Assembly: GCF_056746865.1 (NCBI RefSeq) | Contig: NZ_JBWKMP010000005.1 | Reading direction: 5' to 3' (one strand) | Length of the DNA stretch: 64,000 bases | From: a plasmid | Shown here: positions 6,001 through 9,000 of the stretch, in pieces | How the letters are laid out: each line of letters starts with the position of its first letter | Numbering within the stretch: position 1 is the first letter of the stretch | Program-made: the position numbers

Positions 6001-9000
6001 CGCCTTTGTAGTAATACCTGACTGCAATATCTGGTCGATCTCGTCGCAATAATCTACTCGATACGCCCTTGAGACTGTTCACCAGGGTGGATATCGCCAA
6101 TTTGGGAGGATAGTTAATTAGCAGGTGAACGTGATCTCGTTCTCCATCCATTTCAACCAGTTCAGCTTCAAAATCAGCACATACACTTGAAAAGTAAGTG
6201 CGTAGTTTTTCTATTGCGTCATGGTCAAAAATCTGGCGTCGGTACTTGGTAACAAAGACCAGGTGAACGTGCATCAGGAAGACACAGTGCCTTCCACGTC
6301 GGATATCGGTTTCTTTTTTCATAGGCCAAAGTATAATTTGGCATATGAAACGACTACAAGCTTTCAAATTCCAGTTAAGACCAAATGGAAAACAGGAGCG
6401 TGAAATGAGGCGCTTCGCGGGCGCATGTCGTTTCGTTTTCAATCGTGCTCTGGCGCTTCAGAATGAGAATCATGAGGCCGGGAACAAATATATTTCTTAT
6501 GCAAAGATGACTTCCTGGCTGGTTGAATGGAAAAATGCTACTGAAACGCAATGGCTTAAAGATTCTCCCTCACAGCCATTGCAGCAGTCACTGAAAGACC
6601 TTGAGCGAGCCTACAAAAATTTCTTTCAGAAGCGTGCCGCTTTTCCCCGATTCAAAAAGCGGGGACAGCATGATGCATTCCGCTATCCGCAGGGTGTTAA
6701 GCTCGATCAGGAAAACAGCCGTATTTTTCTGCCGAAACTGGGCTGGATGCGCTACCGGAACAGCCGTCAGGTCACGGGTGTTGTGAAAAATGTCACTGTC
6801 AGCCAGTCCTGCGGTAAGTGGTACATCAGTATTCAGACAGAAAGTGAAGTATCAACTCCGGTTCACCCTTCAGCATTAATGGTCGGGCTGGATGCTGGCG
6901 TGGCTAAACTCGCCACGCTGTCAGATGGCACGGTCTTTGAGCCTGTAAACAGTTTTCATAAAAACCAGAAGAAGCTGGCGAGACTTCAGCGCCAGTTAAG
7001 CCGCAAGGTTAAATTCAGCAACAACTGGCAGAAGCAGAAACGCAAAATACAGCGACTGCATTCCCGTATCGCAAATATCCGCAGGGACTACCTTCACAAA
7101 GTCACAACGACCATCAGCAAAAACCACGCAATGATAGTCATTGAGGATTTGAAGGTCAGCAACATGTCAAAGTCAGCCTCGGGTACGGTCAGCCAGCCGG
7201 GGCGCAATGTCCGGGCAAAATCAGGTTTAAACCGTTCGATACTGGATCAGGGCTGGTATGAAATGCGCCGTCAGCTTGAGTACAAGCAGCTCTGGTGTGG
7301 CGGTCAGGTGCTTGCTGTTCCGCCAGCGTACACAAGCCAGCGTTGCGCGTGCTGTGGTCATACAGCGAAAGAAAATCGCCTGTCACAAAGTCAATTCAGA
7401 TGCCAGGTATGTGGATATACAGCGAACGCCGATGTAAACGGCGCTCGTAACATTTTAGCGGCGGGGCACGCCGTTCTTGCCTGTGGAGGGATGGTGCAGT
7501 CAGGCCGCCCGTTGAAGCAGGAACCCACCGAAATGATTCAGGCGACAGCCTGAACGTAGCAGGAATCCACGTCCTTCAGGGCGTGGAGGATGTCAAAGGG
7601 TAACTTTTCAGGATGCGATTTTGCCTGGTGTGTTGTTGCGCCCGTAGCTCGCTGACGCTCACACGCGCAGTACAGCGCCCCGCCCTGCTGCAATGCACCA
7701 GGACGGCGTAAACTCGCTGGCGCTCGCGCTAACTGCGGCATTCTGCGGCGCAAATCAGCATGATCATGGCCTGTCAGTCCGTTGGGCTTTGCAGGGTGAA
7801 GGGATGACCCTGTGCATCCTGGTATGTTCGTCAGCGGCTGCGCCGCGCTTCGGGGCGATGTGGCCCCGCTGCTCCCTGGTATTTCCTTTCGCCCCTTCTA
7901 TCCGCTGACGCGGATTAAGAAATGAGCAAATCATCAAGTAAATTGCTGTTTTCAGGCAATAAATCTTGATAATACATCTAAATAGATGTATTATTATTTC
8001 ATCGAAAGGGGATTGGCTCCTTTCCTTCTTAAGTCCAAACGGACAGGAGATTTAAAATGAAAACATTGACTTTTAATAACGGCACTGTTTCTGTTGGCGA
8101 TGTGTTTGTATCTTCCTGGGGATATGAGCAAACGAACGTTAATTTCTACCAGGTTATTTCTGTTCATGGCAAAAAAACCGTAACTGTTCAGGAGATTCGC
8201 GCTTCAGTTCATCGGACTCATTCAATGAGCGGATATAAGACCCCATTACTTAATGATTTCTGTGGTGAGCCATTAAAACGGCGAGTGCGTGATTATTACA
8301 GTACGCCAGCAATTGAAATTGAGGAATTCGAAACAGCATATAAAGGATCACCGGAAGAAAAACACGAGTTCACATCATACTACTAAGAAAATAGTTGCAG
8401 GGGGTATCCCCTGCAACCATGTTAAAAATGTTAATAGTAGTAGTATTTACCCAGGGGGTTTTAGTATGAATGATGGGGTAAAACTCCGTCCTTCAGGGCG
8501 TGGAGAATGCCGGGCTAATGCAGCAATGTAATGTTGCGCCCGTAGCTCGCTGACGCTCACACACGCAGTACAGCGCCGCGCTTCGGGGCGATGTGGCCCC
8601 GCTGCTCCCTGGTATTTTCTTTCGCCCCTTCTATCCGCTGACGCGGATTAAGAAACGAGCAAATCATCAAGTAAATTGCTGTTTTCAGGAAATAAATCTT
8701 GATAATACATCTAAATAGATGTATTATTGTTTCATCGAAAGGGGATTGGCTCCTTTCCTTCTTAAGTCCAAACGGACAGGAGATTTAAAATGAATATCCA
8801 GGAAGCATTAAACGTTTTTGGATTATCCGGCGAATTAACTGAAAAAGATATCAAAGCAGCATACAGAAAAGCCGCTTTAAAATATCATCCAGATCGTAAC
8901 CCGTTAGGGGCTGAACTGATGAAAGCGGTAAATGCAGCTTTTGATGTCTTGATGGCAAATATTGATAAAATAAATCAGTTCCAGAGCGCTGATGAACATG

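What the first reader, a model, noticed from the sequence alone, without database searches (positions are those of the whole stretch)
8471..8530. Orphan IS right-end-like hairpin preceding module B
Seen in sequence: GGGTAAAACTCCGTCCTTCAGGGCGTGGAGAATG resembles the IS609-like right-end hairpin but no transposase gene is adjacent. Inference: a remnant of a lost IS copy or a non-autonomous palindrome-associated element; it marks a third historical insertion at the same position relative to a module.
Basis: inference. Interest (0 to 1): 0.35.

Follow-up and report, generated by a model that had tools for sequence, protein, structure and literature searches.

The report
Decayed solo-hairpin scar of IS609-like element
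The short sequence is a real but dead leftover of an IS609-type jumping gene that collapsed to one chimeric left-end/right-end hairpin long ago and has sat, apparently inert, in the backbone of IncI2 plasmids ever since; it is an ordinary fossil made by a tidy decay route.

Summary
The quoted 34-mer is at 8476-8509. It shares an exact 19-mer with the right ends of the two intact IS200/IS605 (IS609-like) copies in the window, so the match is not chance.

It is not a plain right end. Its 5' flank and left arm are left-end-like (GTAAAAC.CCGTCC). Its right arm and tail are right-end-like (GGGCGTGGAG.ATG). It matches a 46-nt "solo" fusion of LE and RE better than it matches RE alone (30/34 against 26/34).

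Such solos occur without tnp genes at about ten unrelated loci in plasmids and prophages. At one P1-like phage-plasmid site I found all three states: empty, a 1337-bp IS, and a 46-nt solo. That solo equals exactly the deletion between the 14-nt repeat CGTCCTTCAGGGCG shared by that IS's two hairpins.

The orphan is an old, decayed example:
- It is present in more than 500 IncI2 plasmids, including ones without IS1/IS2, in three variants.
- One variant still keeps the whole LE down to its TTAT target.
- In the window it has lost both cleavage sites and no longer folds (-1.7 kcal/mol against -7.1 for a real RE).
- It is not part of the repeated module: modules A and C and the IncX4 homologue lack it.

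Verdict: an ordinary IS fossil.

The parts
8468..8513 (+). Span equivalent to a 46-nt IS609 solo (LE::RE fusion). Only 8478-8513 is still recognisably IS-derived in this plasmid lineage.
   Evidence: Ungapped register against TTAT+solo: 36/50 here and 42/50 in the L003-type IncI2 variant. Coordinates.
8478..8491 (+). LE-derived part: guide-region GTAAAA (8478-8483), then C and the left arm TCCGTCC.
   Evidence: Matches IS3 and chromosomal IS609 LE (GTAAAACCCCGTCC) but not RE (CAGGAATCCACGTCC).
8487..8500 (+). Core CGTCCTTCAGGGCG, shared by LE-type and RE-type hairpins (loop TTCA at 8492-8495). This is the repeat across which the IS collapses.
8501..8513 (+). RE-derived tail TGGAGAATGCCGG. The position of the right cleavage site TCAA now reads CCGG (8510-8513).
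   Evidence: 9/13 to the RE tail against 5/13 to LE. In IS608 the TCAA site lies 10 nt 3' of the hairpin foot (PMC3201880).
8391..8420 (+). 13-pair hairpin just after the stop codon of the upstream ORF (8057-8386). Conserved in all IncI2 variants; not part of the relic.
8533..8795 (+). Module B: a conserved GC-rich block starting GTTGCGCCCGTAGC, then the promoter TTGATA-17-TATTAT (8699-8727) with a palindromic operator, then the leader of the DnaJ-domain gene.
   Evidence: The homologous IncX4 module lacks the relic.
5849..7596 (+). IS1: intact IS609-like IS200/IS605 element (tnpA on the minus strand, tnpB on the plus strand), inserted 3' of TTAC, 38 nt upstream of module A.
   Evidence: Empty site in pmcr1_IncI2.
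10563..12310 (+). IS2: identical 1748-bp copy, inserted 3' of a different TTAC, 26 nt upstream of module C.
   Evidence: Empty site.
2258..3593 (-). IS3: 1336-bp tnpB-only IS609-like copy with TTAT target and GTAAAA guide. This LE type is the one closest to the orphan's left half.

Best explanation
The orphan is an inert fossil of an IS609-type (IS200/IS605 family) insertion sequence. The IS inserted 3' of a TTAT just downstream of the terminator of the upstream ORF in an ancestral IncI2 plasmid. It then lost its whole interior by a deletion between the about 14-nt direct repeat (CGTCCTTCAGGGCG) shared by its left-end and right-end subterminal hairpins. That left a roughly 46-nt 'solo' made of the LE terminus, the LE guide, the LE left arm, the shared loop, the RE right arm and the RE tail. 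The scar was inherited by all IncI2 lineages sampled and has since decayed. In the window's lineage the first about 10 nt (with the TTAT site) were replaced, the left arm mutated, and TCAA became CCGG. It can no longer form the hairpin or present either cleavage site to TnpA, carries no omega-RNA scaffold, and does nothing. Shown here: the homology, the chimeric LE/RE make-up, the distribution, the loss of fold and cleavage motifs, and the IS-to-solo collapse at another locus. Inferred: that the orphan arose by the same route, and that it is functionless.
For: The match to the IS ends is not chance. The make-up is chimeric: the L003-type variant is 42/50 identical, ungapped, to TTAT plus the predicted fusion, with the left 23 nt at LE 19/23 against RE 4/23 and the right 13 nt at RE 10/13 against LE 5/13; the window variant gives 13/23 against 6/23 and 9/13 against 5/13 (variants). 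Fresh 45-47-nt solos with sharp TTAT|...TCAA| boundaries and no tnp genes occur at many unrelated loci: L009, L013, L014, L017-L020 and L021. At one P1-like phage-plasmid site all three states exist: empty (H334-H341), a 1337-bp tnpB-only IS and a 46-nt solo. That solo equals exactly the deletion between the two CGTCCTTCAGGGCG repeats of that IS ('equals solo: True'). The orphan is in 518 plasmid records, nearly all conjugative and IncI2 in every one fetched, including plasmids with empty IS1/IS2 sites. It is absent from modules A and C in the window and from the IncX4 homologue of module B. Decay is visible: hairpin -1.7 kcal/mol (z 0.1) against RE -7.1 and LE -5.1 to -6.5; the TCAA position reads CCGG, CCAG or CTTG in the three variants. 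No Rfam TnpB-3'-end hit lies at the orphan, whereas all three real REs give HgcC, RAGATH-18 and sot0042 hits. The geometry of the intact ends matches IS608 (cleavage 10 nt 3' of the RE foot; guide AAAG with target TTAC; PMC3201880).
Against: No IncI2 plasmid with an empty site or with a full IS at this exact position was found; the only orphan-less plasmid is a larger deletion. The origin is therefore inferred by analogy. The three IncI2 variants differ immediately upstream of GTAAAAC, and one of them (L006) has a perfect, RE-like 8-bp hairpin (-10 kcal/mol). That could mean selection on the stem, or intrastrand (quasipalindrome) correction. From GTAAAAC onward the relic is about as conserved between lineages as the adjacent module, so purifying selection cannot be excluded.
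Confidence: 0.8

Rival explanations
1. It is a plain right-end remnant: an IS copy whose left part and genes were deleted, leaving only the last about 35 nt of RE.
For: The right arm and tail are RE-type and share an exact 19-mer with the REs of IS1 and IS2. The L006 variant has an RE-like left arm, CCACGCCC.
Against: The 5' flank and left arm match LE, not RE, in all three variants (GTAAAAC). In the L003 type the match runs to the LE tip and the TTAT target: 19/23 against 4/23. The identity of the quoted 34-mer is 26/34 to RE but 30/34 to the solo fusion (my own count from the sequences).
Confidence: 0.07
2. It is a non-autonomous mobile mini-element (a PATE-like, single-hairpin element of 46 nt) that transposed into this site as such, mobilised in trans by IS609 TnpA.
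For: Solos occur at about ten different loci, always with IS-type boundaries TTAT|...TCAA|. Solos are common on plasmids: roughly a third of the sampled rows were full-length solo matches rather than LE-only matches.
Against: The solo has one hairpin and only the LE-type guide. IS608-type TnpA needs two hairpins and a separate right guide for TCAA (PMC3201880; the GAAT identity of GR is from memory). The hybrid stem is weak (-2.3 kcal/mol). The three-state locus shows a solo identical to the collapse product of the resident IS. Crossover points differ between solos, with GGGCGTGG and GGGCGGGG right arms, as expected for independent deletions. No site with only empty and solo states was documented.
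Confidence: 0.08
3. It is a functional part of the plasmid backbone or module (a terminator, an RNA-stabilising stem, a piece of a single-strand promoter or primosome site, or a TnpA decoy), and only resembles an IS end.
For: It is fixed in more than 500 plasmids and well conserved from GTAAAAC onward. The perfect stem in the L006 variant is compatible with selection.
Against: It is absent from the paralogous modules A and C and from the IncX4 homologue. There is no T-run and it is not called as a terminator. The stem is destabilised, not compensated, in the two major lineages (G to A in the right arm of L003; -1.7 and -2.2 kcal/mol). The homology to LE and RE extends beyond the stem to the IS tip.
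Confidence: 0.04
4. It is a chance resemblance.
For: None.
Against: Exact 19-mer. 0 of 100 shuffles matched the 34-mer. The core gave 8 hits against 0.21 expected.
Confidence: 0.005

Closest known systems
IS609 (E. coli; IS200/IS605 family, IS605 group; tnpA + tnpB/insQ)
   Same: The orphan's recognisable parts match IS609-type ends. The guide region GTAAAA and left arm match chromosomal IS609 LE (K-12 ydcL-tnpA-insQ locus). The right arm and tail match the IS609-like REs in the window. Records annotate the intact copies as tnpA and insQ/TnpB, and Pfam gives Y1_Tnp plus OrfB_IS605.
   Different: No genes, no second hairpin, no omega-RNA region and no intact cleavage sites; about 46 nt instead of 1.3-1.75 kb. 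The name 'IS609' rests on the annotation insQ/ydcM and my own knowledge. ISfinder could not be queried.
IS608 of Helicobacter pylori (mechanistic model of single-strand 'peel and paste' transposition)
   Same: The intact copies here share its geometry: target and left cleavage site TTAC with guide AAAG 5' of the LE hairpin, and TCAA 10 nt 3' of the RE hairpin foot (PMC3201880). The TTAT/AAAA against TTAC/AAAG covariation seen here follows the published guide-target rule.
   Different: The orphan lacks what that mechanism needs: both cleavage tetranucleotides, a stable hairpin, and a right guide.
PATEs (palindrome-associated transposable elements; gene-less IS200/IS605 derivatives)
   Same: Gene-less derivatives of IS200/IS605 elements that keep end sequences (PMC3119063 and PMC10055086).
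   Different: PATEs keep separate LE and RE palindromes, often an omega-RNA, and are thought to be mobilised in trans. The solo has a single chimeric hairpin and, at the one informative locus, arose in place by collapse.
Solo LTRs of retroelements (analogy only)
   Same: A terminal-repeat-by-terminal-repeat deletion removes the interior and leaves one hybrid repeat as a scar at the insertion site.
   Different: Here the repeat is only about 14-20 nt, lies inside the subterminal hairpins, and the element is a bacterial single-strand DNA transposon.

Membership tests
IS200/IS605 (IS609-like) element end or remnant | Sequence homology to the subterminal imperfect palindromes of the IS | tested here: met
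   Exact 19-mer with RE. 30/34 to the LE::RE solo (my count). The L003 variant is 42/50 over the whole solo plus target.
IS200/IS605 (IS609-like) element end or remnant | Stable subterminal hairpin in the top strand | tested here: not met
   -1.7 kcal/mol, z +0.1 (window) and -2.2 (L003 type), against -7.1 for RE and -5.1 to -6.5 for LE. Only the rare L006 variant folds, at -10.0.
IS200/IS605 (IS609-like) element end or remnant | Left cleavage/target tetranucleotide (TTAT or TTAC) 16 nt 5' of the hairpin foot, with a matching guide (AAAA or AAAG) at the foot | tested here: inconclusive
   The guide GTAAAA is present in all variants. TTAT is present at the right distance in the L003/L004 variants, but the window has GTAT followed by unrelated sequence.
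IS200/IS605 (IS609-like) element end or remnant | Right cleavage site TCAA ending 10 nt 3' of the hairpin foot | tested here: not met
   CCGG (window), CCAG (L003), CTTG (L006). Fresh solos keep TCAA.
IS200/IS605 (IS609-like) element end or remnant | Y1 transposase (tnpA) and/or tnpB within the element | tested here: not met
   Nothing lies between the ends. The overlapping 80-aa ORF (8289-8531) has no Pfam hit.
TnpB omega-RNA (RE-derived guide RNA) | About 100-150-nt structured scaffold upstream of the RE boundary | tested here: not met
   Weak, below-threshold Rfam hits to HgcC, RAGATH-18 and sot0042 occur at all three true REs and none at the orphan. Homology to RE stops about 27 nt from the virtual end.
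PATE / non-autonomous IS200/IS605 derivative | Both LE and RE palindromes retained | tested here: not met
   A single hybrid hairpin.
PATE / non-autonomous IS200/IS605 derivative | Evidence of mobility: the same element at polymorphic sites without a parental IS | tested here: inconclusive
   Solos lie at about ten loci. The only three-state locus points to collapse in place. The O157-type prophage site showed only the solo state.
Repeated promoter module of IncI2/IncX4 plasmids | Present in every copy of the module | tested here: not met
   Absent upstream of modules A and C (one copy per plasmid) and from both IncX4 module copies.
Intrinsic terminator | GC-rich stem followed by a T-run | tested here: not met
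   Not called by the scan and no T-run follows.

The most novel reading that the evidence does not exclude
Collapse to a single chimeric LE::RE hairpin may be a general, possibly TnpA-synapsis-promoted, decay pathway of IS200/IS605 elements: a bacterial counterpart of solo LTRs. Fresh solos, which keep TTAT, the guide and the hairpin, might still be bound and nicked by TnpA as orphan left ends, seeding rearrangements or cassette exchange next to them. That could account for the three IncI2 lineages differing immediately upstream of the relic. In that reading the orphan would be a worn-out example of an unrecognised class of IS-derived sites that annotation pipelines do not mark.
Probability: 0.12. 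Interest if true: 0.55.

Novelty: new variant of a known kind. Interest (0 to 1): 0.3.

Why it matters
For this plasmid it matters little. The sequence is a dead IS scar and says nothing special about module B. It does show that IS609-type elements have been landing in the short permissive spacers upstream of these promoter modules for a long time.

More generally, the comparison documents a clean route by which IS200/IS605 elements vanish while leaving a 46-nt chimeric hairpin. Four consequences follow.
- Such scars record past insertions that annotation misses.
- They can be mistaken for orphan ends, PATEs or regulatory hairpins.
- They mean that counts of IS609 activity based on genes alone underestimate its history on plasmids and prophages.
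- The TTAT/AAAA against TTAC/AAAG pairs are a natural example of the guide-target rule established for IS608.

Tried and rejected
- **Omega-RNA or orphan TnpB guide.** An Rfam scan of 1-16000 found TnpB-3'-end families only at the three real REs. Rejected.
- **Terminator or promoter role.** The consensus scan found nothing at the orphan. Rejected.
- **Part of the module.** Checked the other modules in the window and the IncX4 homologues. Rejected.
- **Empty site or intact IS at this exact position in relatives.** A 159-nt query against PLSDB gave 518 records, all with the relic or a larger deletion. Neither state was found.
- **TTAC|CCAG at 8461-8468.** This is identical to the IS1/IS2 left junction and looked like a retained LE tip. 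The sequence that follows is unrelated to the IS, and the register against the L003 variant places the old target at 8464-8467 (GTAT). I treat it as an unexplained coincidence.
- **O157-type prophage solo site.** About 100 genomes, all in the solo state, so uninformative about the direction of events.
- **Exact-pattern scan of species-representative genomes for the diagnostic hybrid 28-mer.** No hits. The collection holds one genome per species, so this says little.
- **Single-strand folds of module A, to test an Frpo-like single-strand promoter idea.** z = -1.7 (+) and -2.6 (-); suggestive only and not pursued.
- **Literature.** Searches on IS609, PATE and LE/RE internal deletion found no description of solo hybrid hairpins in the held library. 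The search was limited and is not proof of novelty.
- **P1-like plasmid pEC213_2.** It carries a full IS609-like copy, but at a different site.

Full report
**Context**

The window is an IncI2 conjugative plasmid, 100% identical over the tested stretches to pVE362 (NZ_AP018355.1). It carries three IS200/IS605-family elements.
- IS1 (5849-7596) and IS2 (10563-12310) are identical 1748-bp copies with a Y1 transposase gene on the minus strand and a 402-aa TnpB on the plus strand.
- IS3 (2258-3593, minus strand) is a 1336-bp copy with tnpB only.

Records annotate these as tnpA and insQ/TnpB, that is IS609-like. The name rests on that annotation and on my own knowledge.

The relative pmcr1_IncI2 (NZ_KU761326) has both IS1 and IS2 sites empty: gtatgTTAC|AGGGTAAC and gactTTAC|ATAATTGC. 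IS1 and IS2 are therefore clean insertions 3' of TTAC with no duplication. Only about four plasmids carry them at >=99% identity, so they are recent.

The ends are:
- LE = TTAC|CCAGTGCGCCGTAAAG-CCCCGTCC-TTCA-GGTCGGGG...
- RE = ...GGAAT-CCACGTCC-TTCA-GGGCGTGG-AGGATGTCAA|

This is the IS608 geometry: guide AAAG with target TTAC, and TCAA ending 10 nt 3' of the RE hairpin foot (PMC3201880).

**Observation**

The quoted 34-mer is unique, at 8476-8509. It shares an exact 19-mer with the REs of IS1 and IS2. The 14-nt core CGTCCTTCAGGGCG gives 8 hits at <=2 mismatches against 0.21 expected; seven of them are the six IS ends plus the orphan. No transposase gene is adjacent.

**What it is**

I aligned the orphan to both ends and then to IS3, whose LE is TTAT|CCAGTGCGCCGTAAAA-CCCCGTCC-TTCA-GGGCGAGG. 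The orphan's 5' flank and left arm (GTAAAAC.CCGTCC) are LE-type. Its right arm and tail (GGGCGTGGAG.ATG) are RE-type.

Other IncI2 lineages make this clear.
- In about 240 plasmids (L003 type) the relic reads TTAT|CTGGTGCGCAGTAAAACTCCGTCCTTCAAGGCGTGGAGAATGCCAG.
- This is 42/50 identical, without gaps, to TTAT plus the fusion 'LE up to the shared core, then RE from the shared core'.
- Its left 23 nt match LE 19/23 against RE 4/23. Its right 13 nt match RE 10/13 against LE 5/13.
- The window variant gives 13/23 against 6/23 on the left and 9/13 against 5/13 on the right.

The relic is therefore a chimeric LE::RE single hairpin. It derives from the TTAT-targeting, AAAA-guide subtype that chromosomal IS609 copies also represent, not from the TTAC/AAAG subtype of IS1 and IS2.

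**How such a thing arises**

The predicted 46-nt fusion exists as a free-standing 'solo' with no tnp genes and sharp TTAT|...TCAA| borders at many unrelated places.
- An E. coli prophage remnant (L009, 46/46 identical).
- An O157-type prophage site (L013).
- Another prophage (L014).
- A P1-like phage-plasmid (L017).
- An IncK2/Z plasmid (L018).
- A Klebsiella michiganensis plasmid (L019).
- Salmonella IncFIB and IncFII plasmids (L020, L021).
- Next to the hok/sok locus of IncI2 plasmids themselves (L002).

The P1-like phage-plasmid site is decisive. The same junction, ggggcTTTAT|...|atatccagatc, is found in three states:
- empty (600/600 contiguous, H334-H341);
- occupied by a 1337-bp tnpB-only IS609-like element (pF719-4);
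- occupied by a 46-nt solo.

That solo equals exactly what is left when the IS is deleted between the two copies of CGTCCTTCAGGGCG in its LE and RE hairpins. The simplest order of events is insertion followed by collapse across the short direct repeat.

Different solos have the crossover on either side of the T/G difference in the right arm. This fits independent deletions. Whether TnpA synapsis of the two hairpins promotes the deletion is speculation.

**Why the orphan is a fossil**

- Its hybrid stem is weak: -1.7 kcal/mol and z +0.1 in the window, and -2.2 in the L003 type. True RE gives -7.1 and true LE gives -5.1 to -6.5. Even fresh solos reach only -2.3, because an LE left arm does not match an RE right arm.
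- The TCAA position reads CCGG, CCAG or CTTG in the three variants.
- The TTAT site and the first 10 nt of LE are replaced in the window lineage.
- Nothing resembling the TnpB guide-RNA scaffold is present.
- The change in the L003 right arm (G to A) is not compensated.
- The rare L006 variant has a perfect stem whose left arm is the exact complement of the right arm. I read this as intrastrand (quasipalindrome) correction, as also seen in the hok-adjacent relic of L002. Selection cannot be excluded.

**Relation to the module**

The conserved module block starts at 7635, 8533 and 12337. IS1, IS2 and the relic end 38, 26 and 19 nt upstream of it. The relic is not part of the module.
- It occurs once per plasmid.
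- The same module in IncX4 plasmids, including the copy in front of the homologous DnaJ-domain gene, has unrelated sequence upstream.

In the L003 type the TTAT target is the end of a terminator T-run (GGGGCttaatcGCCCCTTTTTTTAT|). Several other IS609 copies and solos also sit after ...TTTAT. The position 'just before a module' is thus at least partly explained by target choice in a permissive spacer after the upstream gene's terminator.

IS1 and IS2 used two different TTAC sites 13 nt apart in paralogous sequence, so they were independent insertions. I cannot say whether the clustering reflects a true hot spot.

**Verdict**

- The finding is real.
It is a hybrid, not a plain RE. It is not a PATE. 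It is far older than, and of a different subtype from, IS1 and IS2.
- The thing itself is ordinary.
- The mildly new point is the solo-hairpin collapse route, which I did not find described in a limited literature search.

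Noticed in passing
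window 2258-3593 (-): Third IS609-like copy without tnpA (tnpB only, 1336 bp), inserted after TTAT 11 nt from the sok RNA (Rfam sok at 3604-3775). Its LE hairpin is weak (-2.3 kcal/mol). Only about 24 plasmids carry this LE junction.
   Followed up: partly
L002 (NZ_KU761326) 2517-2590, minus strand; equivalent to the window junction at 2258: In pmcr1_IncI2 the same right junction (GTCAA|ATATTGACCAGGAATT) carries only a solo hairpin. Its left side reads GCGCCTTATATCCCCG, the exact complement of the LE 3' arm, so a quasipalindrome appears to have been 'corrected'. A tandemly duplicated hok-leader-like unit lies upstream.
   Followed up: partly
window 5845-5864, 10559-10578, 3574-3597(-); L010-L012: Natural covariation of target and guide. 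IS1 and IS2 have TTAC with guide GTAAAG. IS3, chromosomal IS609 and most of the solos examined have TTAT with GTAAAA, as the IS608 guide-target rule predicts.
   Followed up: yes
window 7966-7994, 8699-8727 (and about 12670-12700): Each module ends in a near-consensus promoter, TTGATA-17-TATTAT, whose spacer is the palindrome ATACATCTAAATAGATGTAT, a likely operator. L003-type IncI2 and IncX4 plasmids have different palindromes at the same place (TAGGTCAGTTCTGACCTA; ACGACTTAAAGGTCGT). This suggests a family of repressor-controlled modules shared by IncI2 and IncX4.
   Followed up: no
window 7635-7905, 8533-8640, 12337-12600, 13421-13462: A GC-rich block of about 270 nt precedes the promoters and is partly deleted in module B. 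It is 92% identical to a block in 33-kb IncX4 plasmids. The minus strand folds better than shuffles (z -2.6). It is possibly a single-strand promoter or priming element of a leading region; this was not tested.
   Followed up: partly
window 5722-5840, 10466-10540, 13350-13400, 14701-15293: Repeated inverted motif CTTTACA(n)TGTAAAG next to the ParA/MipZ-like gene (5056-5721, minus strand) and upstream of modules. Likely partition or regulator binding sites.
   Followed up: no
L006 (NZ_AP024128) 1551-1925: One IncI2 lineage has an extra 124-aa gene (annotated 'phage tail protein') inserted between the upstream hairpin and the relic. CP101950 (L008) is a deletion derivative lacking the relic and the first about 35 nt of the module.
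   Followed up: partly
window 8461-8468: TTAC|CCAG, identical to the left junction of IS1 and IS2, lies 10 nt upstream of the orphan's guide-like GTAAAA (8478-8483), but is followed by non-IS sequence. Unexplained; possibly coincidence.
   Followed up: partly
window 21216-21557: At least 14 tandem copies of an 18-nt unit, probably a peptide repeat inside a gene.
   Followed up: no
window 35512-36686: Three copies of a 48-nt repeat containing GTGCCAATCCGGT. From memory these resemble shufflon (Rci) recombination sites of I-type plasmids.
   Followed up: no
window 18202-18346 and 58745-60148: Iteron-like TGTGGGT repeats (18202-18346), and a 79-nt direct repeat 1325 nt apart (58745 and 60070).
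   Followed up: no
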